A stretch of 64,000 nucleotides of DNA. Source: Eledone cirrhosa. Lineage: Eukaryota. The stretch lies in the NCBI GenBank assembly GCA_964016885.1, contig OZ024751.1, positions 50,964,001-51,028,000 of the forward strand, in the 5' to 3' direction. Of the stretch, positions 4,875 to 60,055 are shown piece after piece. Below the pieces are notes generated by a model, which saw only the letters and a program-made list of their open reading frames with translations, was not told where the DNA came from and ran no database searches. Within the stretch, counting starts at the first letter, position 1, and every line of letters starts with the position of its first letter. The translations under genes and the position numbers were made by a program.

Positions 4875-5114
4875 TCCTTTGTCAGTGTTGAACGAAATGG
4901 CAACGATGGTTGCCGAACACTGTACGGCTAATAATTCGGGCTGTACATATATATATGTGTGCATGTATGTATGTATATACATACTACTGTACGTCTGTAT
5001 ACATATATGTATGTACGTATACATACTTATATTTAAGTATCAGCGGTACTAAGAGTGAGAAATGAAATTTCATTTTTTCCATTTATATATATATATACAT
5101 GCACATATATAAAT

Positions 5115-15843: not shown

Positions 15844-16172
15844 GGAGGCACATGGCTTAGTGGTTAGAGCATTGGGCTTGCAATCGAAAGGTTGTGAGTT
15901 CAATTCTCAGGCCGGGTAATGTGTTGTTTCCTTGAACAAGACACTTTATTTCACATTGCTCCAGTTTGCTCAGCTGTAGAAATGAGATGATAGGACTGGG
16001 GTCCCTATCATTCCACTGCAAAGTGGTCGTGGAGGTGCCACGGCAAAAAAGCACCCAGCACTCACTGTAAATGAGGTTGGTGTTAGGAAGGGCATCCAGC
16101 TGTAGAAATGAAGCCAGAATCAGTTCCTGTCCCACCCTTGCAAGCAGGGAAAAGCGGATGTAAAATGATGAT
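15844..16172 (+). mobile_element. tRNA-derived SINE family A, full copy with RTE-like tail
   Basis: tRNA-like head, CORE-like middle, then GTTGGTGTTAGGAAGGGCATCCAGCTGTAGAAA tail shared with the RTE LINE 3' UTR, ending (GAT)n. A sister copy lies at 38358-38690. Confidence 0.9.
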
Positions 16173-24335: not shown

Positions 24336-24425
24336 TGTGTCCGTCGAATCTGTGGGTCCAGAATCAGACAGATCCACACAATGATCGCGTCTCAAGCTGT
24401 CTGCCGGGGAAACAATTGTAACACA
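24336..24425 (+). ncRNA. Degenerate type I hammerhead with long stem II region
   Basis: TGTGT-CCGTCGA (two changes from CTGANGA)-61 nt-GAA-ACAATTGT-A-ACACA. Stem I is TGTGT/ACACA and stem III is palindromic. Confidence 0.45.
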
Positions 24426-24485
24426 CAATAAATTGAGTTCAGATGCATCATTGACTTTTCGTTTTCTATTCTATTTCATATATAT

Positions 24486-38303: not shown

Positions 38304-38793
38304 TCATCAGCATCATCATCATTGTTTAAGGTCCATCTTCTACGGTAGCATAGGTTATCACATGGCTTAGTGGTTAGAGCATTGGCCTTGCAATCAAAAG
38401 GTTGTGAGTTCAATTCTCAGACCGGGTGATGTGTTGATTCCTTGAGCAAGACACTTTATTTCACATTGCTCCAGTTTACTCAGCTGTAGAAATGAGATGA
38501 TAGGGACTGGGGTCCATATCATTCCACTGCAAAGTGGTCATGGAGGTGCAACAGCAAAAAAGCACCCAGTACTCACTGTAAATGAGGTTGGTGTTAGGAA
38601 GGGCATCCAGCTGTAGAAATCAAGCCAGAATCAGTTCCCTTCCAACCCTTGCAAGCAGGGAAAAAGCGAGCATAAAATGGAATGAATGAAATGAATATAT
38701 ATATATATAAGTAGAAGTTGTATTTAATTTGTTGGAAGTCCGATAAACATAAATGTTTATAACTGATTTAGAGCACTCAACAGATTACTGGAG

Positions 38794-40491: not shown

Positions 40492-40651
40492 AGGCTTAAA
40501 AATAGGAATAAAAATAAGACGAAAGCAAGAACGGGGGAGTGGGGAGTTTTCCTCATCAGTTGTCTACTGGTGAAATATCCAAGACCCCAGTAGACAACTG
40601 ATGAAGAACCCCCCCCTCTTGCTTTCTTCTTCTTATTCCTATTTTTAAGCT
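40492..40651. repeat. Imperfect foldback element with CTGATGA on both arms
   Basis: GCTTAAAAATAGGAATAA..TCATCAGTTGTCTACTGG / CCAGTAGACAACTGATGA..TTATTCCTATTTTTAAGC, 16-nt spacer. Confidence 0.8.
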
Positions 40652-40660
40652 TATATATAT

Positions 40661-40789: not shown

Positions 40790-41460
40790 TATAGAGAAAG
40801 CTTTCAAAGAATCTAAGGTGCAAGTGCAGCATGAACTCTGAGTGAGCAGCAAAAGATTTATGGTGGCACAATAAAGTGCATGACATACAAGCCTCGGCAG
40901 AAATACGAGATGCTAAATTATTATATCATGAACTGCACACATTATATGGCCCACCTTCCATAGTCTTTGCCCTACTGCAGTTAAAGAATGGAGACAAAGT
41001 GTTGTGTAAGCCTGATGAAATCAAGACAAGATGGCGCAAACACTTTAGTGGCCACCTATCTCTTGTTAATCTGGATGTGATTGAGGTCATGGAGTAGGCT
41101 CCCATCATTAACAAGCTTGATGGTCCACCCACATCGGAAGAGGTTAAGACTGCAGTAAGACAAATGAACACTGTTAAAGCACCTGGAAAAAATGGTATAG
41201 TCCCTGAAGGGACCATCTTTTATTTAACAACATATACCACTAGGTGTGGTTGAAGGATGCATTTCAACGGGACTGGAAAGATATCATTTTCGTCTCCCTC
41301 TTCCAGGAGGGATCAAAAGATGTTTGTGATATCTACAGTGGGATCTCTTTACTATCAGTTGTTGGTAAATATGTGCCATGGTTCTTCTTAATCATCTGCT
41401 GAATACATGCTGCACCTAATATTCTGTTGGAAGCTCACTGTCGTTTCTGTCCATATTGGG
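40790..41460 (+). mobile_element. RTE-type LINE fragment (second family)
   Basis: EIKTRWRKHF, LDGPPTSEEVKTAVRQMNTVKAPGKNGI, GISLLSVVGK. Confidence 0.8.
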
Positions 41461-41556
41461 GCAATGCAGATATTTACATTAGCATTTCATCAGAGAGGTC
41501 TGGAGGAAAACTAAAGTTCTGTGGACCAGGTCACATTTGTATAGTTTTCCTCCAGA

Positions 41557-41667
41557 TCTCTCTGATGAAATGCTAATGTAAATATGCATTGTGGGATAGT
41601 GGATTATATAACAATTTTTCAGCTCTCATGGGTGGTTGCATAACTGCATTGAAACACCTGTAAGAGA
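41557..41667 (+). ncRNA. Type I hammerhead with 82-nt expanded stem II, overlapping foldback 41462-41591
   Basis: TCTCT-CTGATGA(41562-41568)-AATGC...GCATT-GAAAC(41651-41655)-ACCT-GTA-AGAGA. Stem I is 5 bp and the triplet is GUA. Confidence 0.65.
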
Positions 41668-41889
41668 CCCTATTATGTAATAAATACCAGAGGTTTTGCT
41701 ACCTTGGTATATTCATTAATCCCAATATATTTCAGATACACTACACACATAGTCACCCCACATAGTCCTCCCTATACACACATACACACATAGTTCCTCC
41801 CCCCTATACACACATACACACATAGTCCCCCCCTATACACATATACACACTTAGTCACCCCCACATAGTCCTCCCTATACACACATATG

Positions 41890-42255
41890 GAAGATCCTAG
41901 AAAGACTAGCAACAAACTTTGGCATAGAGAGCTGGACCAACCTTTGAAAATTATGCCACTGTGTGGTGCCAATGGCCCCATCTTTCACATCTAGAATAAG
42001 GATCAGATACTGCAATAGCCTGGGTTCAAAGCCCACACCTCTTTAATAAGTTGCCAAAAATCTAGTGAGTTACACATGGTGTGGATGTAGATGTTTTCAA
42101 AAAGCATCTTGAAATTCTACTAACCAAGATCCTAGTTGAACCCACAGCATGAGATGAAGTACATCAATTAACAACCAAGGAAAGCTGGTTAAAGAAAGTG
42201 TAGTGACAATGTTGTTGCCCCAGCTTGGCCTCAGTTAGTCAGCTGGAATAGGTAA
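41890..42255 (+). mobile_element. CR1-like LINE 3' end, decayed
   Basis: Pieces PHLFNKLPK, LHGVDVDVFKKHLEILLTKILVEP; tail GCCCCAGC-TGGCCTCA also occurs at ~8975 and ~35765. Confidence 0.6.
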
Positions 42256-42671
42256 AGAGTATATATTCAATATATCTGCTGTGAATATTCCTATCAATTT
42301 TCGTACATATTTAAACCTCAAGTCTCTTGAGATGTCCACTAAAATAATAAAATATGAAAAACAAATGTGAAAACTAAAAAAAAGATCAAATTATTAAATA
42401 CTTAATGATCAATTAAATAAAATCAATAGTAAAAATTGAGAATCTAATTTGATCTAAAAATAATTTCTGTGACATTATAAAATCAGAGACATCTCTAGCT
42501 TTAATTTCTTCTTTTTTTCTTTCTTTAAAATTTATGAATGAAAAAAAATAAGAAATTTCTTTCTGTTTTTTCATATATTTTATAAACTTTTTGCTTGTTC
42601 TTTTACAGATTTTATTGTAACTTTTGTTTATTTTTTACTTTATATAATTATGTATAATTATTTATAAATTA

Positions 42672-42870
42672 GAGGGCGGTGAATTGGCAGTATCCGTAGA
42701 GGGTTGGACGCCATGCTTTGATGCATAGAGTTACGTCCCTTTATGATCTGAGTTCAAATCCCGTCTAGGTTAACTTTGCCTTTCATCCTTACGGGGTCGA
42801 TAAAATAAAGTACCAATAATGCACTGGGATAATTACTGGCCTTGTGCCAAAAGTAGAAACAATTATTTAT
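42672..42870 (+). mobile_element. SINE family B, full copy; further copies at ~13480, 29280, 31830, 45960-46355, 54235, 63590 and 63868
   Basis: Head GGGCGGTGAATTGGCAG, B box, conserved core and tail. Confidence 0.9.
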
Positions 42871-43190
42871 AAATTAGATTATTGATTGTATATATATATA
42901 TATATAAAACGAAGGAAGTGTGGTAAGGAACCAGATGGACCATAACGCACCAGAGTACTCAATACTTAGAATAGTAGAGTGGGTAATAGGAAAATGTTTA
43001 ACCCCGATAGCAGAGCTCAAGCCGTTTTGACGGCTATTTCTGGACATATATATATATATATGTGTGTGTGTGCGAGTATACACACACACACATATATGTA
43101 TATATGTATATATATACACACATATAAGCACATTTTCCCCTTCCCTTACCCAGTGTATATCTATATACATAATTAAATACACATACACTT

Positions 43191-43232
<42 letters not shown>

Positions 43233-45879
43233 TATATACATATACATATATATACATATCATTATCCTTATTTAACATCCACTTTACTAAACTGGTATGG
43301 GTTGGATGAATTGTTGCAGACTAAGTCAGTACTTAATCAAAGTTACTGTCCCTCCAGATGAGCTATGGTCCATACCTTGCTTAGATGAATTCAGATTTTG
43401 GCATGGTTTCTACAGTTTGATGCCCTTCCTATCACTAACCACTTGGTGGATTTTAATATACCATGATAAAATACACCTGTCCAACCCTTGATAGCTGGGA
43501 AAACAGACATTAAATGATGATGAGGATGATGATGATGATGGTTGTGGTGATGATGATGATGATGATGATGATGTTTGTGGTGGTGGTGGTGATGATGATG
43601 TTGACGATGATGATGACATGTACAGTTCAATTACTACAGGAAGCTTAAGCTGTATAATTTTTAAACTTTGTATTGCTTTCTTTGAAGAACAGTGATTGTT
43701 ATTTCTGGAAGTCTGAAGGGTCCATTCTTCACAAAATCTCCATTAATTAATTAAATAGTATTTTATTTAACTAATTTTTATTTTTTAATCATGGCACTTC
43801 TGATGAGAGAATTTTACCTTCACTGAAATTGCTCATTACTATATACTTGTGTTTGTTTGTGTGTGAGGTTTGTTCATATGTGAGTTTGTGTGTGTTTGTG
43901 GCTGTGTGTGTCAGTTTGTGCATGTTTGAGTTTGTGTGTGTATGTGTTTGCGTGTGTGTATATGCATGGATTTTTTAAAATGTGATTTATACACACACAC
44001 ACACACACACAGATATATATATATATATATATATATTCACACAAATACGCAAATGAAGTAATGATATTAGCAAAATGGTTTAAGATGTTTATGTTTATTA
44101 AGTGTTTAATTTAAAGTTGAAGTGGCTATGGCTGCCTCACTCTTATAACCTAGCTACCTTTCTGTCTATCACACATCACATGCCCCTGAATAACCCCCCC
44201 CCCCCCCCCTCCCTCTATTCACCACACACACACTCTGATCTCCCTCTCACTTTAACATTCTTCTGAAGTTTCCCTTAGCTAATCTTTTCATTATTCCAAA
44301 AATACTTTCATTGACCAATACACATCTCTCTCCCCACCTTCTCTCTCTCTCCACCCCCTCTCTCTATCTCTCTCAATGCCACTTAATCTTTTCTTCTTCT
44401 CTCCCTCTCTGTCTCTTTCTCTCTCTCACTTTTCTTGCCTCTTTTCTCTATTTTTTTTCTACTATCACTGTTTCTTTATCTATCTAGCTATCATCTCCCT
44501 GTCAGTCTTACACCTTAAATTGATAGCTGTTTCATCATCCTAAATTAGTAACCACAGGATAAACATGGACAAATAGGGAATCACAGAGGGTTGATTCATT
44601 AGGATGGTGTACCAGGAAAAGGGGTGGAGCTACAGTAGTGACAGTATAAAAGGTAGGGTGAAGAGACAAAACAAATATTTAGAACCTCGATGGAATAAAG
44701 GTTGTTCTGATTTGTTTTCATTTAGTTGTGGTGATTCTTGGCAGAGCTGTTCTGCTAGAGAATGGGTCGCAGGTGGGGATAGCAATATGGCCACCAGATA
44801 TGATGGTGGAGTCTTTAAAGTCTAAATATATGAACTATCCAGATTAAGTTACAGCAACAACTTCTTTAAATATTTACTGGGAAACAAAAAAATGATATTT
44901 AGATGATTTCTTTATCCTGTGGATACAGTTTTGATCAACTTAATGAGTTCAAAACTGTAATTAATAGTATATCATCATCATCATCATCGTTTAACGTCCA
45001 TCTTCCACGCTAGCATGGGTTAGACGGTTTTGTTCCATTTGATGCGGGATTGGTTGGGAGACCGTGTCTCACTGATATGGAAGTGTCTCTGGCAGGTTTT
45101 CTAAGGCTGGATGCCCTTCCTAACACCAACCACCTTTACAGAGCGGACTGGGGGCCAGATAATAGTATTTAATCTTCAATGGATTATAACCAAAACAATT
45201 ATTATTTTTGTATATATTAAAAGAGAAACACACAAAAAGACTGACATGTGCTTCAAATCAAATAGACTTGAAATAGTATTTGTTGCTTCTTGCCATCTGA
45301 AACAGGCAATAACAAATATCTTATTCAAAGCAATAGATATTGAGGAATTGCAGAAGTCAAATGTCACTTCAGATACCATTATTGAAACAGAAACTGAGAA
45401 TGAAAAGAAAACTTGACATTCAAATAGATAATAAAAAGTAAAAGACAATCAAAATGAAATACTAACCAGCACCTAATTACCTGCTGAAAATACAATCTAA
45501 CAGTCAAACTTTATAGACGTTCTAACTGCAAAATTTGTATTATACTTACTGAAGGTACATCTTAGGAATCAAAAGAGATATCTAGAGGAAAGTAACCTTT
45601 CAACTGTGCAGCAGGAAATATAATTTTTGTTATTAAATGTAATAAATGTAATGAAGATTACATTGGACATATGGGGTTAAATTTGAGGAAAAATATGAAA
45701 CCCTGGTATCAGGCAATATTTGTTAGAGAAAAAAGGAACTTATGTGCAACAAATAAATTCCCTTTGTAACAATATGCTGAGAAAAATTACCTATTAGATA
45801 TGTAATAAGAAATATGAGACATACCTAAACAGATTATGATTATTATTATGAAGAGTAGTCTCAATACAATAAAAATAAG

Positions 45880-45941
<62 letters not shown>

Positions 45942-46703
45942 AAATAATAATAATAATAATTGTTTCTACTTTTTGGCACAAGGCCAGCAATTACCCAGTA
46001 CATTACTGGTACTTTATTTTATCGACCCCGTAAGGATGAAAGGCAAAGTTAACCTCGGCGGGATTTGAACTCAGAATGGCAAGGGCCGTAACTCTATGCG
46101 TAATTCTATTATTATTAATAATAATAATAATAATAATAATAATGATTTCTAGTATAGGCACACGGCCAGTAATTTGGGGGAGGGGAAAGTCGATCAAATT
46201 GACCCCAGTACGTTACTGGTACTTTATTTTATCGACCCCGTAAGGATGAAAGGCAAAGTTAACCTCGGCGGGATTTGAACTCAGAATGGCAAGGGCCGTA
46301 ACTCAATGCGTCAAAGCATGGCGTCCGACCCTCTACCGATACGGCCAATCCACCAATAATAATAATATATTATAATAAGAACGCTGTCTGTCTGTCCGTC
46401 CCTCTGTCCATCACACTCACTTTATATAGAGGGGAGTGCCAAGTGAGAGGTATGTACATAGATAGAGAGAGAAGGGAATGCTGTGTGTTTTTAAGGTGAC
46501 AGAAAGAGGGAGACAGACAGAAAGTTATGATGTTGCCCTCATCTATATATAGAGAGAGGGGAGTGCAAGTGAAAGAGATGTACATAGATAGAGAAAGAAA
46601 AGGAACGTCATTTGTTTAGAGAGAGAGGAGAGAGTGTGTTTGAGAGAGTGTGTATGTGACAGAGAGAGGGAAAAGACGATGTTGTTCTCCTCTAGTAATA
46701 ATA

Positions 46704-46756
<53 letters not shown>

Positions 46757-47329
46757 AGTAGAACTGGAATGAAAATTGCATAAATACTATTGAATATCTA
46801 TATCAACAATGGAAAAAAACCATGGAAGAGCATTAAATAAGGCAGTGAAAAGTTTATTTGTGAGGTGTTTCGGAATAACAATTTCAAAGTAAATTCTGAT
46901 TTATAATGATAAAAATATTTTGAATGTAATTTATTCGGTAACTATGGTAAATTTATTGTTATGTGTCTGTCCGATATTAAAACTGTACATCAATAGTAAA
47001 CAAGACAGTCCAAATGTTCACCTACAATTTCAACACTTTTCAACAGCGATTTCTGATTTGTGAAGTTAAAATGTTTTTGTTGTTGTTGTTTGTTAAATGT
47101 AAAGTGTTTGTTGATAAAATAAATGAATATTATTAGTGGGCTAGATGAGGCTCATTTGCGAGTGATTTTCAAATATTTCAGCAAATATTTTGATTTATGG
47201 TTACTAAAATATATTATTAGTTCTCTTCTATTTAGGATAGAATTCTTTTGGAACAAATGATTTTGTGCCATAAGAATTCTGGCTAAAACACCCATGCACA
47301 TCTTCTGTATATCATACATTATCATTGGC

Positions 47330-47720
47330 AACATGGCAAAAAGCACCTAGCCCATGTTGTAAAGTGGTTGTGTAGATAACATGACAAAAAGCACCCAGCC
47401 CACACTGTAAAGTGGTTATGTAGGTAACATGACAAAAAGCACCCAGCCCACACTGTAAAGTGGTTATGTAGGTAACATGACAAAAAAGAGCCCAGCCCAC
47501 ATAGAAAAGTTGTTGTCATGACAAAAAATGCCCAGCCTACACTATAAAGTGGTCATCTAGGTGACACAACAACCATCACACACTGTAAATGTGGTTGGCA
47601 TTAGGAAGGACATCCAGCCATAGAACTCAAGCCAAAAGTAGTTCTATATGAGCAAGACATGGTCATTGAACCTGGTTTGTATCACAATGGGGCAACTCAT
47701 CTAACCCATACTAGCATTCC
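47330..47720 (+). repeat. LINE/SINE tail with internal 48-bp tandem expansion (~5 copies)
   Basis: CATGACAAAAAGCACCCAGCCCACACTGTAAAGTGGTTATGTAGGTAA; GCACC recurs at 47343, 47391 and 47439. Confidence 0.85.
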
Positions 47721-47779
47721 TATCTCTGGCCACATTAGGCCTTGTGGGGCCAAGGTATTAGGTCAGATCATCACATCAT

Positions 47780-48040
47780 CTGGTCTTTGGCCACCCTCTT
47801 CTATTTACCTCCGGAAGTAGAGCACCATCTCTTACAATCTTCTTTCCGAAGTACACATAACTGTCTACTTCCTTAATCATCTTTCCATCTACAAAAATTG
47901 GTGATGATTTAGTGGTTTTCCCAAGCTGGATGTTAAAGCCTTTTGGCTGGCTCAAAGTGTGGATAGCCTTGAGCATTTCCTTCAATTCTTGTGGTGTATG
48001 GGTTATTAGGATGATGTCATCTGTGAAGTCAGGGTAGCAT
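47780..48040 (-). mobile_element. LINE RT C-terminal fragment
   Basis: FTDDILITHTPQELKEML...VDGKMIKEVDSYVYFG...LLPEVNRR. Confidence 0.75.
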
Positions 48041-48151
48041 AGGAGTTCACTATAAATGTATGTACATATATTTGTATGTATAAATATATAGGTATTGTAT
48101 GCATGTATGTATGTGTATATGTATTTGTTTGTATATATGTATGTGTGTATA

Positions 48152-48184
<33 letters not shown>

Positions 48185-48253
48185 CATGTGTGGGGTGATG
48201 GTGGTGGTGTGTATAAATATATTTATATACATACATATATGTATAATTGTATT

Positions 48254-48288
<35 letters not shown>

Positions 48289-48836
48289 ATACACACACAT
48301 ATATATATATATACAATTAAACATGAAAGAGATAAATAAAAAAACATACATAAAATAAGACAAAAATAAAGCCCAAGTAACTTTTAAAAAAACAAAACAC
48401 ACAAACACGTACACATACACATGTACACACACACACACACACACACATGTACACACACACACACACACGTATACACACACACGTACACATAGAAATTGTA
48501 GAAAGAGATAATGTTGACAGCTGATTGGTTGATTTCTAACGCAACCAATGCAACAAGCAAATTTGGCAAAACTGTTAGATTAGTCAGATATCAAGAATGG
48601 TGAGATAAAAGCTTGGATAAGGCCATTTTATGATATTTCATAATTTCCTCTAGTCTATAATTCATGAGTCTTTCAAAAAAGGTTAGATACCCTTTTAGTA
48701 GACGTGTTATAATAAAGATGGTCATTGGTATCAATTGATATCACACATGATATTGTAGTCTGCTCAATGATAAACATTTCATTTGAAAGTCTTTCTCCAA
48801 ATTTATTGCTGTTGTATTTCACATTCTCCTTCACTT

Positions 48837-48924
<88 letters not shown>

Positions 48925-48930
48925 ATTCCT

Positions 48931-48961
<31 letters not shown>

Positions 48962-49108
48962 AGATCAAAAGATGGTTAAAAGAGTTCCATGTATTTTATT
49001 ATGCGCATTTCAAAAACAAATATCATGGGATGATATTTGCGTTCTCATCAGATAAAATAGGGAGACATGATATGAAGCTTAAAAAACACTTGCGAGCAGT
49101 GAAGTGAA

Positions 49109-49156
<48 letters not shown>

Positions 49157-49159
49157 ACA

Positions 49160-49950
49160 TCAAATACGTTTGACAACATTTACTAACCACCAAGTGTAGA
49201 AGCCAATCAGCAGAACAAGTCTGTCTACATGAGACAGATAACATCATAAGAGTTGGGAAGGAGCTTTTTGAGAAATACTCTCTCAATGTTAACCAAAAAC
49301 ACACACTCAGGGAAATTACACAACACTACCGCAACAAATCAGCAGTTGAAAAGCTGTATGTTTATTAGCAGAAAGTTATGCTTGGCTATTTTATTAGAAA
49401 GCAACAACTAGTAAATTAGCTCTCGCTTTCAAGGATATGTTTTTGCGATCCAGGACCACAAAATAACAAAGAAATACCTGATGCACAAAAAGAGATATGA
49501 CAACAGTTACAGACTCTCTGGAATAAACATCGAGGATGACACTCTTATCATAAGTAGCTGTTTGAAGATATCATCACAATATTAATTACCTATGAGGCAT
49601 AGTATAGTGGCAAAAACACTATACAATGTGACCCATAGAAAGGATGGTCTTGAGGATAAAAATACAAAAGAAGGGCATAAGTACACATAATATGAAAGAG
49701 TACTGGTGGAATGTTCCAGTTAAAACCACAATAAAATGTAAACATAATAGACCAGATATTATGATATGGAACAGAAAAGTAGGCATACACAGTAGTGGAA
49801 ATCATTAGCCATGCAGATGTTAATATAGTGTTAAATATTAGTGAAAAGGAGAATATTTATGCAGATACTCCACTCTGACTATACCGTTAGATTTGTACTG
49901 GTGTTCATTGGGGCTCTGGGATATCTTAGTACAAATCTTGAGAAGTTGAG
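49160..49950 (+). mobile_element. R4/Dong-type non-LTR retrotransposon C-terminal fragment (RLE domain)
   Basis: IISSC...MRHSIVAKTLYN, EYWWNVPVKTTIKCKHNRPDIMIWN, VVEII.HADVNI...EKENIY, IGALGY. Confidence 0.75.
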
Positions 49951-50602
49951 CAACAAACACATACATATATAATTACCTAGTTGATGTTGTCTAAATAGCA
50001 ATGAAAGAGTCTTGTTTCTATGTTAGAAATTAATAAATATAATAAAACTACAAGTGCATACATACATTGTATCTACATAAACAAGCTCCAAATTATTCCA
50101 CATCAACAGGTGAAAAACAAATGAGGAAATCATAAAGAAAGAAGGAAGGAAAGAAAGAAGGAAAGAAAGAAGGAAAGAAAGAAGGAAAGAAAGAAGGAAA
50201 GAAAGAAGGAAAGACAGAAGGAAAGAAAGAGGGAAATAAAGAAAGAAAGAAGGAAAAAGAAAGAAGAAAAAAAATAGAGAAAGAAAGAAACATTTTGCTG
50301 AAAATTGCTTGTATTTCTTGCATGCTCACTAAAAAAACTGTTAAATCAGACTTAAAAGAAAATTCTAGAAAACCCACCCTCAAAACAATATATTGAACAC
50401 AATCCTCCTCACCTCCCATCAGACATTAAGACCAATCAACACCTCACCCAACCACAAATCTTTTTAACAACACATCCCTCCTTTCCACCTGTACATATTA
50501 CCATCATCCTGACACATACTTCTACTTCCCAGACTCCTTAATGAAAAGCTAAACTCTTTTGATTATTGGAAGTAATCAATATGATAGGATGTGGCAATAT
50601 AG

Positions 50603-50666
<64 letters not shown>

Positions 50667-50733
50667 AAATGTATATATATATAGTGGTTGTTAAATGATG
50701 ATGATGATATATATATACATACAAATGTATATA

Positions 50734-50788
<55 letters not shown>

Positions 50789-50790
50789 AT

Positions 50791-50833
<43 letters not shown>

Positions 50834-50835
50834 AT

Positions 50836-50876
<41 letters not shown>

Positions 50877-50878
50877 AT

Positions 50879-50921
<43 letters not shown>

Positions 50922-50963
50922 ATAAAATAAATATATATATATATATATTTACAAATGTATATA

Positions 50964-51034
<71 letters not shown>

Positions 51035-51086
51035 TCATCATCATCATCATCATCATTTAACGACCACTTTCCCTGAGAGAGAGAAA

Positions 51087-51121
<35 letters not shown>

Positions 51122-51274
51122 TTAATATCATAGTTGCATCAAAGCAAATCTCATTTACTGGCAAACATCCATGACCTTTTGGTGGTGTCAAAGAGGAGGT
51201 GCTGTTGTTTGTATGTGTACGTGTGGTGGGGAAAAGTGAACTGATTTTCTGAAGACCACATATACATATAAGTA

Positions 51275-51545
51275 TATCATCACCATCATGGCTTGGTTTC
51301 AAGAATGACGATTATGATGGGGATGGTCCACGTTGACTGCAGGCACACTCATGGTTGTCCAGGTCAAAGCAGAGCAGGCAGGCATAGCTGCAGTGGCTGC
51401 AGCTGGGGTTCTGGTCAGGGTTTGACGACTTAGTCTTGTGGTTCTTCCTCCTGTGACTTTTGTCCTTGAGGGTGGCCTTGCAGGTGTTTTCAAAAGAGGA
51501 GGCAGCATAATAGAAGGTGAGACATCAGGTGTCATGGTTCACAGC
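51275..51545 (-). mobile_element. RTE-type LINE extreme 3' end with zinc-finger-like motif
   Basis: SSFENTCKATLKDKSHRRKN...CSHCSYAC...NHECAC followed by a GAT-rich tail. Confidence 0.65.
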
Positions 51546-52020
51546 TAAGGTGGACCATTGGGGATGGTCGATGTGACAAGCAATAGGGATTTTTTTTAAA
51601 CAGTCCTTCTATCCCCTTCCTAGGTGTCCCCTGTCATGGTGGTCATTGAATTTTATAAACCATCTTTCTCATGAGTAGCTTGGATGGAGGTTAAAAAACA
51701 TCAATGGCATCGATTGGTAGAATTGTCAGAGCATCAAACCAAATGCCATGTGGAACTTATTTATGGGATTTACCTATGTTCCAGCTTTTTACATTCTGAG
51801 CTCAAATCTTCCCTACGTCAACTTTGCCCTTCAATCTTCTGGTAATCAATGAATTAAAAAGTCAATCAGCTAATGCTATTGATTTATCTTCCTATAAGGC
51901 ATCTTAGATATAAATGGAATTTTAATAGGAAAAAAAAATACACCTCCACTACTGTCAACTACAATGACGACAAAACAAAATGCTACAACAGTTGTATCAA
52001 AAGAAAAACCTATTACTTAC

Positions 52021-52350
52021 CCTTTCCAACACCAGTAGATGGCAGATGTTATTGAAAATATGACTGTTAAAGTCATAATTGTCAAACAAAACCAGAGCTC
52101 CCAGAATCTTCCAAGAGTTAGATGCCATGCGGACGGTTTTACAGTATCATTTAAGTTCGATTCTGTTGTAAGGTTTAACTCCTGTCTTACTTCAGTATCA
52201 TACGTTTTGTAAAAATAAATCTCTGTTTCATTGGATACAGATCCATTTACCAATACGAGAAAATCATTTCTTGAAGATTTTTTATTCCTCTCCATATGCA
52301 AATTAGCAGCATCTTGGAATGTACAATTATTTAAGAACCAGATTTCAATT
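52021..52350 (-). CDS. Internal exon: N-glycosylated stalk plus transmembrane helix
   Basis: Acceptor ctctttctctataatttcag|, donor GG|gtaagt, 330 nt fully open (phase 2-2). Sequons NCT, NGS, NET, NLT, NDT, then LWFCLTIMTLTVIFSITSAIYWCW-KG. Confidence 0.85.
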
Positions 52351-52717
52351 CTGAAATTATAGAGAAAGAGTTAATTTAAAAATTTTTAACTTTCAGTTGT
52401 CCTCACAAAGCAGGTTATATGAAAACTTGTAGAATGAATTTTTTTATTGTGTGTGAGTGTGTGTGTGTGTGTGTGAGTATGTGTGTGTGTGTGTGTGTGT
52501 GTGAGTATGTGTGTGTGAGTGTGTGTGAGTGTGTATGTATGCATACATATTCTTTATTATGGTTAAATGCTGAAACTCCAGAGTAACAATGCTCACCATT
52601 TAGCCACAATAAAATGTATATAAAGTATATCAGTATTGAGTACTCGTTCTCCTGTCCGTCAATGTTACGTGTATATATACACACATGTGATATATGTATA
52701 TATATATATACACATGT

Positions 52718-52771
<54 letters not shown>

Positions 52772-52804
52772 AATAATGGAGCTGCGGCGCTGCAAATGGG
52801 TTAC

Positions 52805-53736
52805 ATATGAAAAAGTTTGTCCTCATCAGTGGCCTTCAACCGTCGTAGGCATTTCGTCGCATTAAAGGCCATATACCCCAGGTTGGTGCGAACAACGGCT
52901 AAAAAAAGTCGTTGGGACACGTAAATAAAGGGGACGCTAGGGTAAACAAACAAAATGGTTTAAGCAGCAGAAAGTGATGAAGAAGAAACAAGTCCCAGAT
53001 TTCTATGAATATAAATTCGGTGGAATCGTGAACGAGAGAATAAAGACCATCAAACCTAGTTGAAATGTGAGCAAGGAAGGAATTTCGCACAGGTCTAACG
53101 GGAGGAAGAAGGGGTCTGGTCTGCGAATTCGGTAAACATAAGTTCTGTGAAGTCGCAGACGAGAGAGAGAGAAAAAAAATTTTTTTTCTCTCTGTTTCGT
53201 TTCTTTGTTTGTGTCTTTACCCTCTCTAGCAGTCTCTCTCTCTCTGTTAGCCTCTTCCTCACCTTTCACTCACTCACTCTCTGTCACTACCTATCCTCCT
53301 CTCCTTTCTTCCCGTTTGACCTGTCCGTAATCCTTTTCTCGCGGGCACTTGGCCAAGCCGGTATGAAATTTTTTTTCTCTCTCTCTCGTCTGCGACTTCA
53401 CAGAACTTATGTTTACCGAATTCGCAGACCAGACCCCTTCTTCCTCCCGTTAGACCTGTGCGAAATTCCTTCCTTGCTCACATTTCAACTAGGTTTGATG
53501 GTCTTTATTCTCTCGTTCACGATTCCACCGAATTTATATTCATAGAAATCTGGGACTTGTTTCTTCTTCATCACTTTCTGCTGCTTAAACCATTTTGTCT
53601 GTTTACCCTAGCGTCCCCTTTATTTACGTGTCCCAACGACTTTTTTTAGCCGTTGCTCGCACCAACCTGAGGTATATGGCCTTTAATGCGACGAAATGCC
53701 TACGACGGTTGGAAAGCCACTGATGAGGACAAACTT

Positions 53737-53743
<7 letters not shown>
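52805..53743. repeat. Long inverted repeat (378-bp arms, 183-bp spacer), probably Penelope pseudo-LTR-derived
   Basis: 52805-53182 versus 53366-53743; mirror ORFs 52899-53090 and 53458-53649 are identical. Outer ends carry CTGATGAGGAC. Confidence 0.95.
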
Positions 53744-53807
<64 letters not shown>

Positions 53808-53970
53808 GAGAGAGAGAGAGAGACAAGACTAGAGGCCTGACATATAACCCCATGTTCTACCAAGTGCATTTTATCATGGCATCAACATTAAGGCAGTTAT
53901 CATGTTCTTGGCATTGCTGAAGAGTCTTCTTGACCCTTTGTTTGGATGTGGTTAATATAAATTTACAAAC

Positions 53971-54131
53971 CTTAATTGTTGATCCTGACTGTTTCCTTGA
54001 GTACTAAACTGTTGGCCTTGAGGAAACTGGTTCATATCAGTGTGGAATGGTACAAGATAATAGTCCAGAGGAACCAGGTCTTGTTTTTTACCCATTGTAT
54101 AGGAAATGCTGAGGTTAAACTGAACAACATC
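53971..54131 (-). CDS. Internal exon of the same membrane protein
   Basis: Acceptor gttgtctttgtag|, donor AG|gtttgt. Open frame DVVQFNLSISYTMGKKQDLVPLDYYLVPFHTDMNQFPQGQQFSTQGNSQDQQL; phase 2 end joins 52350 (AG+A=Arg). Confidence 0.75.
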
Positions 54132-54340
54132 CTACAAAGACAACAACAACACCATCAAAAATATTATCTTCATGTATATATTATAATTATTTATGTATTT
54201 ATCACAAAAATGATCGAACAGATTATATATATATAATTGTTTCTACTTTAGGCACAAGGCCAGCAAATTACCCAGTGCATTACTGGTACTTTATTTTATC
54301 GACCCCGTAAGGATGAAAGGCAAAGTCAACCTTGGTGGGA

Positions 54341-54533
54341 ATAATTGAATATAAAAGAGTGATAAACACATATATTTACATATATGTGTTCAAATCGCAA
54401 GGGACCAGATTGAGTCTGACAAACCCTATTGTTCATAGGTAGTATTTTTCTCACCTTAGCGAATCTGGTCCCTTACAATTTGAAATACATATATGTATAT
54501 ATCTGTGTTTATCTCTCTTTTATATTCAATTAT
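54341..54533. repeat. Foldback element (~71-bp arms) abutting a truncated SINE
   Basis: 54341-54411 versus 54462-54533 are reverse complementary. Confidence 0.85.
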
Positions 54534-54639
54534 AATATATGGCTCGGAAAAATCTCTTTCCTAGAGCTATTTTATTGTAAGAGACTATTTTGAGTTTCTA
54601 ACTCAATATATACCTTTGATATACATAACATATATATAA

Positions 54640-54826
54640 CAAAGAAAATGTGGTAAGGAACCAGGTGGACCATAATGCACCAGAGTATTTGATACTTAGG
54701 GTAGTAGAGTGGGTAATAGGAAAAAAGTGAGGACCTGATGGCTGAGCTCCAACCGTTTTGACAGCTAGATCGGATCTAGCTGTCAAAATGGCCGGAGTTC
54801 AGCCACGGGGTCCTGATTCTTTTCCT
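54640..54826. mobile_element. Short interspersed element with terminal palindrome; relatives at ~42910-43045 and ~56625-56780
   Basis: Shared GTGGTAAGGAACCAG-TGGACCATAA...GTAGAGTGGGTAATAGG body; palindrome TTTTGACAGCTAGATC-G-GATCTAGCTGTCAAAA centred on 54772. Confidence 0.75.
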
Positions 54827-55600
54827 TAATATATATATATATATGTATATATACACACACACACACACATATATATATGATGATGATGATGATGATGATG
54901 ATGATATATATATATATATACACAACATCCAGGCCGAAACAAATGAGATCGTGTAGGTGTCACGACAAAAAAAACACAGTCCACGCTGTAATGTGGTCGT
55001 GTAGGCAACATGGTAAAAACCTCCCAGTCCCACACTGTAAATGTGGTTGGTGTTAGGAAGGGCATCCAGCTGTAGAAAACCCGCCAGACAGTCCTATGCG
55101 AGCAAGACAACCACTCTTGCCTCAAGTGGGAAAACTCCCGTCCAAACCCATGCAAGCGTGGAACATGGACGTTAAATGATGATGATGATGATGATGATGA
55201 TGATATATATATACATATATATAATACTAACAAAATTATAGATGTCATGTCTAAGAAAATCATAAATATGCGCCATACCACCTGTAGAAGAAGCTCAAAG
55301 ATTTTAAGGAATAAATTCAAGCATTTATTAAAAATTAAAGGTCGATTGACATATATATATAAAATAAACATATCAAACATTGACAGGTGATAATTTGTAA
55401 AGAGTGTAAGATCACATAGTTACAGAGGTAGCATATTAAAATTTAATGACAACTTCAAATATAGATGCTTTTTAATAATAATGGCTTCTTATATAGTAGT
55501 ATAGTTAATAGAAGCATTGTCATAAGTTTCAAAAAGCCAGTGAATGAGAAGAAATATTTAAAGGGCAAAAGATGACAAATAAAATGAAATAAAATAATGA

Positions 55601-55758
55601 TTTACCCAGTATATTTCAACATGATATTTCAGGGCTAATACCCTCTTTTCAAATGTGGAACGGAAATGGTTCAAACAAAAATGAGCGATCAATGTATTCT
55701 TCCTTCTTGAAAAGTGGGTATTAGCCCTGAAATATCATGTTGAAATATACTGGGTAAA
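55601..55758. repeat. Foldback element (52-bp core arms) with degenerate hammerhead core
   Basis: 55601-55652 versus 55707-55758; minus arm reads TTGAAAA-G-AGGG-TATTAG-CCCT-GAAA. Confidence 0.85.
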
Positions 55759-55840
55759 AGATTACTTTTATTTTATTGGTCAGCATTTACCCTTTATATA
55801 TTTCTACCACATTGTACTGACTTTTTGAAACTTATCAGTC

Positions 55841-55939
<99 letters not shown>

Positions 55940-56204
55940 TAGAATCGATGTCAGCGTTGCAGCATATGTATAAACTTTATTGGCATATTACAATTGTTTC
56001 AATATCGATCTCAGCTCTGCACACTATAGCCACCTTATCTCTGGAATACAAGCCAACACAAGACAAACCTTGTAACGGTATTGAGTGCTTTGAATGGTGT
56101 GCTGCCTGTAACTGTAGTTAGACACCTAACTAACACCTATATATATATATATATTCATCACTATATATATATATAGTGATGAATTTGTTTTGCAAGGTTT
56201 TTGT

Positions 56205-56247
<43 letters not shown>

Positions 56248-56780
56248 TGTATATAACTATAGATTGCTGAAGTTCACGGTGGAGATGACGAAGGACCGTG
56301 ACAAGTGGAGAGATGCTGTGCTGAATAAGACCCGTCCCACCCTTGCAAGCAGGGAAAAGCGGACGTAAATGATGATGATGATTTATTTTGTTTGACCCGT
56401 TTAGCTTGTTCGCTTTTTGGGCTTAGGTGGTTAATGGCTTCTTAACCATCGTCTCAGTTTTGTATGACCTTTTTAACTTATGTTTATAGCTCTGGTACCT
56501 TTATATCCATTGAGCGCTTGTCAACACAATTCGGAAGTTGTGTTTCGGTAATTCCTAACTGCCGAAATGCGATTCTCGCTAAATTCATATTTGTGTATAT
56601 ATATATATATATATATATATTATAAAGAGTCGAGATCCAACGACCAGTCTGGAACTAGCTGTTGAAATGGCAAGAGCTCAGCCGTTGGTCCCGACTCTTT
56701 TTAATATAGTCACACTCTACTATCCGAAGTATCAAGTACTCTGTTGAATAATGGTCTAACTAGTTTAAAACTGGTTTTAT

Positions 56781-56867
<87 letters not shown>

Positions 56868-57114
56868 TTTTTATACACCCACGCTCACATAAAAATATTC
56901 ATATTGCTGTTTTCTTCACTATACATTGATTTTTATTTTATACATGCACAAATATTAGAACATAAGTGCATATTTTCATGTATATATATATGCATATGCA
57001 TGCATATATATATATATATGCATGGTCCCATAACTTCTGAAAAGATCCCATTAAAAGCAATGATTCTTTGCTTAAACTTTAATCTGTTCTTATAATAAAT
57101 ATTTGCTCTACGGG

Positions 57115-57177
<63 letters not shown>

Positions 57178-57215
57178 GAAGAATGAAGAGTAACATGGTT
57201 GGCTGTACAACAGAA

Positions 57216-57324
57216 TATTCTGAGGATTTGATCAGAGGTAAATAATGTAATGGAGATCGAGTGACACAACTTCGAGCGATTAGCGACCTCTAGACTCACC
57301 TGATCAATGAAACAATTGTTAATA
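57216..57324 (+). ncRNA. Type I hammerhead with 82-nt expanded stem II, enclosed by 39-bp inverted repeats (57174-57212 / 57342-57380)
   Basis: TATT-CTGAGGA(57220-57226)-T-TTGATCAG...CTGATCAA-T-GAA-ACAATTGT-T-AATA. Stem II base is 8 bp, stem III is palindromic, triplet GUU. Confidence 0.7.
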
Positions 57325-57558
57325 CCTGAAATAAAGCCCCTTGTTGTACAGCCAACCATGTTATTCTTCATTCTTTCACTATTATTACTCCAAGTATAAC
57401 CTACATAGGAATTACCACAAACTCGCTGCCTAACTATGGAAGCATCTTGTTGAGTTAAACAAAGCCGTACGTTAAAACTATCCACGACGCAGAGTACTCA
57501 CAACCTCTAACTAGATTACTTATAACGATAACTTGTTATATATACATATATATATATG

Positions 57559-58284: not shown

Positions 58285-58479
58285 TGGCGACAGATATATG
58301 TGTGTGTATATATGCATACATACACACATACATGCATACATACATATATACTTGTATATGAATGTGGGCATTACTATAAATCTATTTTCAATCAGATTTG
58401 CTCTAATGCATATAACCATATAACTTACTTTTACCATATCTCTATTGAAATTGTGATGGTATTGATGGTTGTGGTTGTG

Positions 58480-59900
58480 GTGATGCAGCAGTGTGAGTAG
58501 TTATATTGGTGTTAGCATTAGTGTTTATTGATGTTGAAGTTGTTGTTGTTGTGATGATTGTGGTTGTGGTTGTGGTCATGGTTGTGGTTGTGCTTTTGTC
58601 CATGGTGATATTGTTGGTGTTATTAGTGGCAGTGAAAATAGTTAATTTGATGGAAATATATGTGAATGGTGTTGTTGTTGCTGTTGTTGTGGGTGGTGGT
58701 GATGTTGTTGCTGGTGTTGTTATGGATGATGGTGGTGTTGTTGTTGATGATGGTGTTGTTGGTAGTGTTGGTGGTGTTGTTGTTGTGGATGGGGGTGTTG
58801 TTTTGAATGGAGGTGTTGGTGTTGGTGGTGTTGACGGTGGTGTTGGTGGTGGTGTTGGTGGTGGTGTTGGTGGTGGTAGTGAGGTTGTAATTGGTGGTGT
58901 TGGTGTTGGTATTGTTGTTGTTGTGGATGGAGGTGTTGGTGTTGGTGATGTTGGTGTTGGTGTTGTTGTTGTTGTGGATGGAGGTGTTGGTGTTGGTGGT
59001 GTTGTGGATGGAGGTGTTGGTGTTGGTGGTGTTGGTGTTGGTGGTGTTGGTGTTGGTGGTGTTGTTGTTGTTGTGGATGGAGGTGTTGGTGTTGGTGGTG
59101 TTGTGGATGGAGGTGTTGGTGTTGGTGGTGTTGGTGTTGGTGGTGTTGGTGTTGGTGGTGTTGGTGTTGGTGTTGTTGTTGTTGTTGTGGATGGAGGTGT
59201 TGGTGTTGGTGGTGTTGATGGTGGTGTTGGTGGTGGTGTTGGTGGTGGTGTTGGTGGTGGTAGTGAGGTTGTAGTTGGTGGTGTTGGTGTTGGTATTGTT
59301 GTTGTTGTGGATGGAGGTGTTGGTGTTGGTGGTGTTGGTGTTGGTGGTGGTGGTGTTGGTGTTGGTGGTGTTGGTGTTGGTGTTGTTGTTGTGGATGGAA
59401 GTGTTGGTGTTGGTGGTGTTGGTGTTGGTGGTGTTGTTGTTGTTGTGGATGGAGGTGTTGGTGTTGGTGGTGTTAGTGTTGGTGGTGTTGGTGTTGGTGG
59501 TGTTGGTGTTGGTGGTGTTGGTGTTGGTGTTGTTGTTGTGGATGGAGGTGTTGGTGTTGGTGGTGTTGGTGTTGGTGGTGTTGGTGTTGGTGGTGTTGGT
59601 GTTGGTGGTGTTGGTGTTGGTGTTGTTGTTGTGGATGGAGGTGTTGGTGTTGGTGGTGTTGGTGTTGTTGTGGATGGAGGTGTTGGTGGTGTTGGTGTTG
59701 GTGTTGGTGGTGTTGGTGTGGATGGAGGTGTTGGTGTTGGGGGTGTTGGTGGTAGTGTTGTTGATGATGGTGTTGTTGTTGATGTTGGTGGTGGTGTTGT
59801 GGATGATGTTGTTGTGGGTGGTGGTGTTGTGGATGGGGGTGTTGTGGGTGTTGTTGTTGGTGGTGGTGGTGTTGTTGTTGTGGATGGTGTTGTTGTGGTA
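58480..59900. repeat. 1.4-kb cryptic (GGT/GTT)n triplet repeat with internal block duplications
   Basis: Recurrent GTGGATGGAGGTGTTGGTGTTGGT blocks; open in several frames because of composition. Confidence 0.9.
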
Positions 59901-59922
59901 TTTTGCATCACCACAACAGCAA

Positions 59923-60055
59923 ACCACCACTACTCCTCTAGAACAATGTTATTTTGCATCACCACAACAGCAAAAACATCATCATCACAATGATGATGTT
60001 GTTTTTGCTGTTGTGGTGATGCAAAATGACATTGTTCTAGAGGAGTAGTGGTGGT
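59923..60055. repeat. 65-bp-arm hairpin with 3-nt loop
   Basis: 59923-59987 versus 59991-60055, 2 mismatches; partial direct copy at 59899-59923. Confidence 0.9.

What the first reader, a model, noticed from the sequence alone, without database searches (positions are those of the whole stretch)
41557..57324. Two hammerheads with an identically sized 82-nt expanded stem II domain
Seen: 41557-41667 and 57216-57324 both have intact cores, paired stem I and a valid NUH triplet. The segment between CTGANGA and GAAA is 82 nt in both (41569-41650 and 57227-57308) although the sequences share little beyond GTAAATA. A third degenerate case (24336-24425) has 61 nt and the same ACAATTGT stem III as the 57 kb motif. 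The half-cores at 40598 and 53720 also lack a nearby GAAA. Known: typical Penelope hammerheads have short stem II, and descriptor searches with short-stem limits would miss these. Inference: a hammerhead subclass with an extra structured domain; the equal length could be chance.
Basis: partly seen in the sequence, partly recalled or inferred. Interest (0 to 1): 0.7.

Follow-up and report, generated by a model that had tools for sequence, protein, structure and literature searches.

The report
Jumping-gene hammerheads with oversized, intron-like arm
Two unrelated repeat families in this animal DNA each carry a complete hammerhead self-cutting-RNA motif whose second arm is about three times longer than in published animal examples; the extra piece is likely a folded extension, but it is also bracketed by splice-like signals, so it may be a small intron sitting inside the ribozyme.

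Summary
Both motifs have intact cores, stems I–III and an 82-nt stem II region; at most 1 of 300 shuffled windows gave even one such long hit. Each belongs to its own repeat family, with independent copies spanning the whole ribozyme, so the cores are not fused fragments. The exact 82 is partly luck: family 1 varies from 82 to about 87 nt and the two inserts are not significantly alike. The 24336 case is a decayed relic. The 53720 'half-core' has its GAAA upstream (rearranged SGC-type candidate), so it does not support the claim. Best reading: Penelope-type, dimer-acting type I hammerheads with a folded stem II extension (about 0.48). New here: the shared GTAAATA is a splice-donor-like word with a YAG acceptor 45–56 nt downstream, inside the basal helix, in both inserts (153 and 91 of 5000 shuffles, thresholds post hoc). 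Removing the 56-nt piece from motif 2 leaves a standard 26-nt arm. A retained intron inside the ribozyme gets about 0.37; there is no RNA evidence and cleavage is untested. The scan noted oversized stem II hammerheads before on other pieces of this genome; no intron reading was listed.

The parts
41462..41543 (-). Family 1, inverted (head-to-head) partial copy: upstream sequence, stem I strand, CUGAUGA and the first ~23 nt of stem II, then cut off
   Evidence: alignment (41462-41511 matches 41544-41591); loose end before 41544 resembles the reverse complement of 41512-41543 (read by eye)
41544..41685 (+). Family 1 forward copy holding hammerhead 1; family similarity ends at 41685
   Evidence: records 6-8 and loose ends at 41683-41686
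41557..41568 (+). Hammerhead 1 stem I 5' strand and CUGAUGA core
41569..41650 (+). Hammerhead 1 stem II region, 82 nt: 5-bp basal helix plus predicted rod-like hairpin
   Evidence: variants
41578..41631 (+). Candidate intron in hammerhead 1: donor-like GTAAAT at 41578; YAG ending 41622 in this copy (45 nt) or ending 41631 in the family majority letters (54 nt)
   Evidence: variants 41628 A>G and 41630 G>A; inferred, no RNA data
41651..41667 (+). Hammerhead 1 GAAA, stem III (palindromic in family variants), GUA cleavage triplet (H17 41662), stem I 3' strand
41679..41684 (+). AATAAA downstream of the predicted cut
40996..41461 (+). Decayed RTE-like LINE into which family 1 inserted (resumes about 41686-41743)
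   Evidence: profile hit 40996-41208, E 1.1e-5; weak to 41363; coverage and loose ends
57175..57212 (-). Family 2, short inverted copy of the 3' end (57342-57379), abutting (TA)n
   Evidence: 38 nt, 94.7%
57216..57226 (+). Hammerhead 2 stem I 5' strand and CUGAGGA core
57227..57308 (+). Hammerhead 2 stem II region, 82 nt: U.U pair, 8-bp basal helix, inner part with two near-equal predicted folds
57238..57293 (+). Candidate 56-nt intron in hammerhead 2: AG|GTAAAT donor-like site (7 of 9 to consensus) and YAG acceptor; removal leaves an 8-bp helix with an 8-nt loop
   Evidence: inferred, no RNA data
57309..57324 (+). Hammerhead 2 GAAA, palindromic stem III, GUU triplet (H17 57320; GUC in 49 contigs), stem I 3' strand
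57330..57335 (+). AATAAA downstream of the predicted cut
57325..57536 (+). Rest of family 2 unit; many copies end at 57382 in (TA)n, this copy runs on to about 57536
   Evidence: loose ends at 57382 (39 contigs in X1, 270 reads in X7) and depth table
24336..24432 (+). Decayed hammerhead relic: 5-bp stem I, core with 2 mismatches, 61-nt spacer without donor-like site, same stem III word, AATAAA
   Evidence: not tested against family copies
55977..56000 (-). 3' half of another hammerhead-like relic (same GAAA/stem III word, AATAAA 7 nt after); no recognisable core upstream
53671..53727 (+). The '53720 half-core': S-G-C ordered (non-circularly permuted) hammerhead candidate; second copy at 52822-52877 on the minus strand. 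Not a long stem II member
40540..40660 (.). Head-to-head half-cores at 40559 (-) and 40598 (+); upstream context cut by the fold-back, no GAAA downstream before (TA)n; class undetermined

Best explanation
These are two type I hammerhead motifs at the ends of two different dispersed repeat families, likely derived from Penelope-like retroelements, in which the normal short stem II helix is capped by a 55-70-nt extension that is predicted to fold and likely stays in the RNA. Shown: cores, stems I-III, family copies spanning each motif, head-to-head inverted arms, (TA)n ends for family 2, AATAAA after the cut site. Inferred: transcripts through tandem copies would pair two palindromic stems III and cut after GUH as a dimer, defining the RNA end used in retrotransposition; the extension projects away from the core, so its length and sequence can drift; it probably slows or gates folding, because both unspliced motifs prefer a non-hammerhead fold by about 6-7 kcal/mol and would need a partner or the element's protein. 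The exact match of 82 nt is coincidence on top of a shared size class.
For: Descriptor hits far above shuffles. Family 2: 2935 contigs laid in run X1, also present in organisms B and C; record 1 spans 57216-57382 with 22 differences and no gaps; no core position is among the 40 best-supported of 121 variant rows, while H17 varies U>C. Family 1: 79 contigs laid in X1; records 6-8 span the motif with 18-23 differences; the stem III variant restores a palindrome in 13 contigs and 18 of 19 X7 reads; H17 varies A>U. The motif 2 stem III region forms a self-duplex of -10.2 kcal/mol. Inner helix 41592-41596/41624-41628 is in both the free insert fold and the constrained fold. Family variants and loose ends give complementary changes there (595 G/A against 625 C/U; 602 G/A against 619 U/C), read by eye and unphased. 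Penelope-type hammerheads have palindromic stem III and act as dimers, weakly in vitro (PMC4209133); the Anolis one needs the element's protein (PMC11167929). A U...U pair at the base of stem II occurs in 14 of 34 rows of File S2 of PMC8557442 (hand count). Inverted 5'-truncated arms and (TA)n targets are Penelope-like traits.
Against: No folding z-score is significant (motifs -0.91 and 0.00; inserts -0.51 and -0.95). In family 2 the shown variants inside helices are all one-sided: 57232 T>C and 57274 G>A break pairs with no partner change listed, though 81 variant rows were not shown. The apparent compensatory pair 41592/41628 is equally explained by two CpG decays. Splice-like signals bracket both inserts more often than shuffles give, which this reading leaves to chance. 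No Penelope reverse transcriptase or endonuclease is linked to either copy, so the Penelope assignment rests on structure only. Cleavage was not tested.
Confidence: 0.48

Rival explanations
1. The insert holds a short spliceosomal intron (about 54-59 nt) that is retained in genomic copies, as Penelope introns are. Splicing would turn the 82-nt arm into an ordinary 26-28-nt stem II and favour the hammerhead fold, so unspliced RNA (the transposition template) stays uncut while spliced RNA cuts. The similar lengths would reflect minimal intron size plus a normal stem II. This can coexist with a folded insert.
For: The only near-registered shared word is a donor-like GTAAAT just inside the basal helix (+9 and +11 nt). 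A donor >=6/9 plus a YAG >=45 nt later inside the basal helix occurs in 153 of 5000 (motif 1) and 91 of 5000 (motif 2; 11 of 5000 at >=7/9) dinucleotide shuffles; it is absent in antisense, and no such donor occurs in the 4 shorter spacers (14, 30, 33, 61 nt). Leaving out 57238-57293 gives an 8-bp helix with an 8-nt loop and raises basal helix probability from 0.13 to 0.94; published animal rows reach 26 nt at most (hand count of 26 rows). No substitution in either GT is among the shown variant rows; all listed family 1 indels fall inside the candidate intron; 3 listed contigs of organism C begin exactly at 57294, the first base after the AG. Precedent: Drosophila virilis Penelope keeps a 75-bp pLTR intron that is spliced in most transcripts (PMC2377424) and ends at hammerhead helix I (PMC4209133).
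Against: The thresholds were chosen after seeing the sites, and the two tests are not independent if the inserts share ancestry. Removal ranks no better than random 45-60-nt deletions (208 of 328 and 58 of 200; the 45-nt option in motif 1 is the worst of 328). The acceptor is not at one fixed place across family 1 subfamilies (one loose-end consensus lacks the distal AG, another the proximal, by eye). The consensus of the organism C loose ends before 57294 does not end in AG (agreement 0.64). The predicted inner helix covers the pyrimidine tract and acceptor. The donor lacks +5 G. No intron-less joint appears among 2935 contigs (also expected under retention). Whether this host splices 54-56-nt introns was not found in the papers seen.
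Confidence: 0.37
2. The extension is neutral filler: independent insertions into loop 2 that the ribozyme tolerates, with no selected structure or signal.
For: No significant folding z-scores; inserts unrelated; stem II in this one window ranges over 14, 30, 33, 61 and 82 nt; one-sided changes in family 2.
Against: No indel inside the family 2 insert is listed at the 5% threshold among 2935 contigs; family 1 subfamilies keep recognisable words and complementary changes inside the insert.
Confidence: 0.11
3. One or both motifs are chance assemblies; in particular motif 1's CUGAUGA was made by a local inversion inside a decayed RTE LINE. This was my first reading.
For: Motif 1 lies inside RTE-like sequence and its core is part of a 48-nt inverted repeat.
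Against: Three independent records span 41542/41559-41685 and two of them have long flanks unlike the window; the RT profile does not match over the motif; shuffles give almost no such hits.
Confidence: 0.04

Closest known systems
[quoted passage not shown] 2021, PMC8557442, passages and Files S1-S2 seen; Cervera and de la Pena 2014, PMC4209133, parts 1-2 of 4 read)
   Same: Type I order, 4-5-bp stem I, palindromic stem III, U...U or single extra base at the base of stem II, place near a (TA)n-bounded 3' end, inverted 5'-truncated arms.
   Different: CUGANGA-to-GAAA distance is 82 nt against at most 26 nt in the 26 animal rows of File S2 and 54 nt in the longest row (Selaginella PLE-X1_sMoe) (hand count). 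No coding partner is shown here.
Drosophila virilis Penelope pLTR intron and hammerhead (PMC2377424 passages; PMC4209133)
   Same: A short retained spliceosomal intron in the pLTR that touches the hammerhead, so spliced and unspliced RNAs carry different ribozymes.
   Different: There the 75-bp intron ends at helix I, upstream of the core, and splicing is shown. Here the candidate lies inside stem II, is 45-59 nt, and splicing is only inferred.
Metazoan non-LTR retrozymes (PMC7229834 passages; bioRxiv 10.64898/2026.07.22.740005 part 1 of 5)
   Same: Non-coding, high-copy repeats with type I hammerheads, thought to derive from Penelope-like elements.
   Different: Defined by tandem monomers of about 150-400 nt (range recalled; about 300-390 in the passages seen) with canonical loop 1-loop 2 contacts and circular RNAs. 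Neither window copy is a tandem of hammerheads, and no RNA was seen.
Naiad 'HHR_half_core' cases (PMC8557442) and type-SGC hammerheads (Eckert et al. 2023, PMC10085705 section 13)
   Same: Core halves far apart or in unusual order that escape descriptors; fits the 52829/53720 motifs.
   Different: The two 82-nt motifs are in ordinary type I (CGS) order and are not SGC.

Membership tests
Type I hammerhead ribozyme | CUGANGA and GAAA core, NUH triplet, C-G-S order | tested here: met
Type I hammerhead ribozyme | Three helices able to form around the core | tested here: met
   Stems 5/5/3 and 4/8/4 bp, although the hammerhead fold is 6-7 kcal/mol above the free ensemble
Type I hammerhead ribozyme | Core conserved across family copies while the periphery varies | tested here: inconclusive
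   No CUGANGA or GAAA change among the 40 shown variant rows in either call, but 81 and 76 rows were not shown
Type I hammerhead ribozyme | Self-cleavage at NUH | not testable with these tools
   No RNA run listed; needs an assay
Type I hammerhead ribozyme | Match to an Rfam hammerhead model | tested here: not met
   the short 4838 motif is also missed at the gathering threshold, so this is a weak criterion
Penelope-like element hammerhead | Short palindromic stem III suited to dimers | tested here: met
   Motif 2 directly; motif 1 in family variants only
Penelope-like element hammerhead | Lies in a dispersed repeat with an inverted 5'-truncated arm and microsatellite-bounded ends | tested here: met
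   (TA)n ends for family 2 only
Penelope-like element hammerhead | Linked to a Penelope RT / GIY-YIG ORF or its pLTR | tested here: inconclusive
   No coding match near either copy; no whole genome to search
Penelope-like element hammerhead | Short stem II (<=26 nt in published animal rows) | tested here: not met
   82 nt against File S2; met only if the candidate intron is removed
Non-LTR retrozyme | Tandem monomers each with a type I hammerhead | tested here: not met
   Single full hammerhead per locus in the window; other loci not examined
Non-LTR retrozyme | Circular RNA transcripts | not testable with these tools
   No RNA holder listed
U2-type spliceosomal intron | GT donor and YAG acceptor | tested here: met
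   6/9 and 7/9 donors with YAG 45-56 nt later
U2-type spliceosomal intron | Branch site and pyrimidine tract | tested here: inconclusive
   By eye: TAAY word at 41609-41612 kept in two loose-end consensuses, pyrimidine tract clear in motif 1 and short in motif 2
U2-type spliceosomal intron | Splice sites fixed across family copies | tested here: inconclusive
   Donors unchanged in shown rows; family 1 acceptor shifts between 41622 and 41631
U2-type spliceosomal intron | Spliced junction seen in RNA | not testable with these tools
   No RNA run available
Type-SGC hammerhead (52829/53720 motifs only) | S, G, C blocks in that order with stems I and III complementary | tested here: met
   locates the blocks; stem I 7 bp in the 52829 copy and stem III 5 bp, read from the sequence
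Type-SGC hammerhead (52829/53720 motifs only) | Stem II of several pairs next to the core | tested here: not met
   Only 1 adjacent pair; failed my filter; an extra-strand helix was not tested

The most novel reading that the evidence does not exclude
A natural hammerhead ribozyme interrupted by a spliceosomal intron: the host spliceosome removes about 55 nt from stem II and thereby switches on self-cleavage, while the unspliced, uncut RNA is the form that retrotransposes. This would give a reason for intron retention in Penelope-like elements and mean that intron-split ribozymes are invisible to current genome searches.
Probability: 0.3. Interest if true: 0.85.

Novelty: new variant of a known kind. 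Interest (0 to 1): 0.55.

Why it matters
At the least, two repeat families carry hammerheads that Rfam and short-stem descriptors miss, so counts of ribozymes in animal genomes and statements that some Penelope-like elements lack them are probably too low. If the insert is an intron, two open questions about Penelope-like elements (what the hammerhead is for, and why genomic copies keep their introns) become one question that a single RT-PCR and a cleavage assay can test.

Tried and rejected
Whole-genome search: no genome is held, so family evidence comes only from two read-laying runs that show 40 of 121 and 40 of 116 variant rows, unphased.

My first reading, that motif 1 is a chance core in RTE coding sequence, came from by-eye frame matches and was rejected.

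A GIY-YIG-like stretch on the minus strand at 57340-57420 was seen by eye. Pfam gave no hit, the phmmer search gave 4 unrelated repeat proteins, and family loose ends do not keep it: rejected.

Two homolog searches with the RTE fragments found nothing.

No RNA holder was listed; this says nothing about expression. The read-end pile-ups at 57314-57317 and 57410-57413 in run X7 sit on AATT words in a reduced-representation DNA library, so I read them as restriction cuts, not ribozyme cuts.

Collection scans: an exact family 2 pattern gave 0 hits in metagenome contigs. A long stem II descriptor gave 115 metagenome and 120 viral loci from partial scans (14 of 64 and 2 of 64 parts); of 240 matches 1 had 4+4 pairs and 1 had 3+3, chance level.

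Rfam at E<=10 gave only microRNA-type hairpin hits on the inverted arms and noise. A SECIS reading was considered by eye and dropped. A third '82' at 56000 (-), a stem-like pairing 82 nt before GAAA, has no core and was counted after the fact: not used.

Literature: searches listed no natural hammerhead with an intron in stem II and no animal Penelope hammerhead with an arm this long; most hits were seen as listings only. Lunse et al. 2017 is not held, and the 2017 terminon paper and Perreault et al. 2011 (recalled) were not seen; they may hold long stem II examples. Motif words were not found in the supplements of PMC8557442, PMC13282606 or 12 of 33 files of PMC10294476, apart from one 10-nt word in an unrelated context. 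Figures and the preprint's supplement could not be seen.


Full report
Setting. The window is AT-rich, microsatellite-rich animal DNA full of LINE, SINE and fold-back fragments. Earlier scan notes call the genome octopus-like; I did not test the species. No whole genome is held.

Observation. A type I descriptor allowing stem II up to 300 nt found 4 hits on both strands: 4838 (14 nt), 41562 (82), 57220 (82) and 49051 on the minus strand (33). A fifth, 38969/38902 (30 nt), has one stem I mismatch and was read by eye. With microsatellites removed and local dinucleotide shuffling, windows with at least one hit of stem II >=50 nt numbered 0, 1 and 0 of 300 under three settings, and none had two. 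The two long motifs are therefore real features. Their inserts are not significantly alike (28 of 82 identical; global score matched by 82 of 1000 shuffles, local by 406, an 8-nt shared word by 84). Neither folds better than shuffles, and both prefer a non-hammerhead fold as single unspliced molecules. The GAAA-plus-ACAATTGT word occurs 3 times against a shuffle mean of 0.085 (0 of 200 shuffles with two or more), each time with AATAAA 6-9 nt after the triplet. So 24336 and 56000 (-) are probably relics of related hammerheads, but 24336 has two core mismatches and 56000 has no core.

Family evidence, motif 2. In run X1, 2935 contigs lay on 57176-57530; the family is also in organisms B and C (29 and 11 contigs) and in raw reads (2867). 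Record 1 covers 57216-57382 with 22 differences and no gap, so an independent copy has the same 82 nt, and no indel inside the insert is listed at the 5% threshold. Among the 40 shown of 121 variant rows none hits CUGAGGA or GAAAC; the cleavage base varies to C in 49 contigs. Changes inside predicted helices are one-sided (57232, 57274, 57277, 57286, 57290), so there is no covariation support beyond the complementarity of the 8-bp basal helix. Many copies end at 57382 in (TA)n, while this one runs to about 57536; a 38-nt inverted copy of the 3' end stands head to head on the left.

Family evidence, motif 1. I first thought this core was a by-product of an inversion in a decayed RTE LINE. The reads contradict that: of 79 contigs laid in X1, records 6, 7 and 8 span the motif with 19, 18 and 23 differences and 2, 5 and 0 gap letters, and the family's similarity stops at 41685 with a different continuation. 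The locus is a head-to-head pair (41462-41543 minus, 41544-41685 plus) inserted into the LINE. Family variants restore a palindromic stem III (41658 C>G in 13 contigs) and keep H17 as A or U. Insertions of 1-4 nt at 41579 and 41612-41614 make the arm 82 to about 87 nt, so the exact 82 is not fixed. Variants and loose-end consensuses, read by eye and unphased, give complementary changes in an inner helix (595 against 625, 602 against 619); the 592/628 pair could be two CpG decays.

The half-cores. At 53671-53727 (+) and 52877-52822 (-) a cleavage block and a GAAA block precede CUGAUGA, the S-G-C order of Eckert et al. 2023; this lead came from earlier scan notes. Stems I and III are complementary but only one stem II pair is adjacent, and the motif failed my filter. 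At 40559/40598 the upstream context is lost to a fold-back. Neither supports a long stem II class.

What the insert may be. The word shared by the inserts, GTAAATA, starts 9 and 11 nt after the core, just inside the basal helix, and reads as a 5' splice site (6 and 7 of 9 matches to the recalled consensus). A YAG follows at 57293 (56 nt) and, in motif 1, at 41622 (45 nt) or at 41631 with the family majority letters (54 nt). Such a pair inside the basal helix arose in 153 and 91 of 5000 shuffles; antisense and the four shorter spacers were negative. The thresholds were set after seeing the sites, and the tests are not independent if the inserts share an ancestor. Leaving out 57238-57293 gives an 8-bp helix with an 8-nt loop (26 nt) and raises the basal helix probability from 0.13 to 0.94, but random deletions of like size do as well (rank 58 of 200; motif 1 ranks 208 and 327 of 328). 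Penelope of Drosophila virilis keeps a 75-bp pLTR intron that is spliced in most transcripts and ends at helix I of its hammerhead, so there is precedent. Against: the family 1 acceptor is not at one fixed place, the predicted inner helix covers it, no intron-less joint is seen in DNA contigs (also expected under retention), and I found no figure for this host's smallest introns.

Mechanism. Shown: anatomy, family status, inverted arms, end positions. Inferred from known Penelope-type hammerheads: cleavage after GUH in dimers through the palindromic stem III, weak alone and possibly protein-assisted. I put a folded, unspliced extension at 0.48, a retained intron at 0.37 (the two can coexist), neutral filler at 0.11 and chance assembly at 0.04.

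Comparison and novelty. Rfam misses both motifs but also the short one. The motifs work like Penelope-type minimal hammerheads; membership of a Penelope element is unproven without a coding partner, and they fail the tandem criterion for retrozymes within this window. Ten literature searches listed no intron-split natural hammerhead, but key papers were unavailable. Earlier scan notes report oversized stem II hammerheads on other pieces of this genome, unchecked by me; look-ups by sequence and for the intron idea returned nothing.

Papers seen. PMC4209133 parts 1-2 of 4; PMC8557442 passages, supplement parts 1-2 of 59 and term searches; bioRxiv 10.64898/2026.07.22.740005 part 1 of 5; PMC10085705 passages and section 13; passages only of PMC11167929, PMC13725137, PMC3846280, PMC2377424, PMC7229834, PMC11649378, PMC13644364 and PMC13282606 (plus its supplement by term search); PMC10294476 term search in 12 of 33 supplement files.

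Verdict. Real, family-level, a new variant of a known kind; interest 0.55, carried mostly by the testable intron reading.

Noticed in passing
window 53671-53727 (+) and 52822-52877 (-): Candidate non-circularly permuted (SGC-order) hammerheads at both ends of a 346-nt, 99% inverted repeat bounded by (TA)n.
   Followed up: partly
window 4039-4910: 431-nt, 98% palindrome with a minimal type I hammerhead (14-nt stem II, palindromic stem III) in each arm (4838 +, 4111 -) and the start of a tandem unit after 4887.
   Followed up: partly
window 49000-49059 (-) and 38902 (-)/38969 (+): Related hammerheads with intermediate 33- and 30-nt stem II hairpins and palindromic stem III; no donor-like site in them.
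   Followed up: partly
window 40540-40660: Tiny head-to-head element with CUGAUGA near each end, no GAAA, ending in (TA)n.
   Followed up: partly
window 57382 and about 57536: Family 2 appears to have two 3' ends about 155 nt apart, and several contigs join 57236-57271 to 57419-57480 on opposite strands, as if copying starts at two sites.
   Followed up: no
window 55989-56082 (-): A 6-of-7 pairing starts exactly 82 nt before the third GAAA/ACAATTGT word, with donor- and acceptor-like words between, but there is no core; counted after the fact.
   Followed up: partly
window 41636-41683, run X7 reads: A family 1 subfamily appears to have a 6-nt palindromic stem III with a GUC triplet two bases earlier (15 reads; read by eye).
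   Followed up: no
window 24761-27299 (+): Fragmented RTE-like LINE with endonuclease, RT and a PHD-like finger (193 homologs); short pieces of it recur across the window.
   Followed up: partly
window 15847-15914 (+): The only Rfam hit at gathering score, tRNA; it heads a repeated element (copies at 9652-9821 and 38359-38664), probably a tRNA-derived SINE.
   Followed up: no
window 52017-52370 (-): 117-codon open frame ending in a hydrophobic segment; may be a host exon.
   Followed up: no
window 58442-59929: 1.5-kb degenerate triplet repeat with open frames on both strands (Pro/Thr-rich on the minus strand) and extreme GC skew.
   Followed up: no
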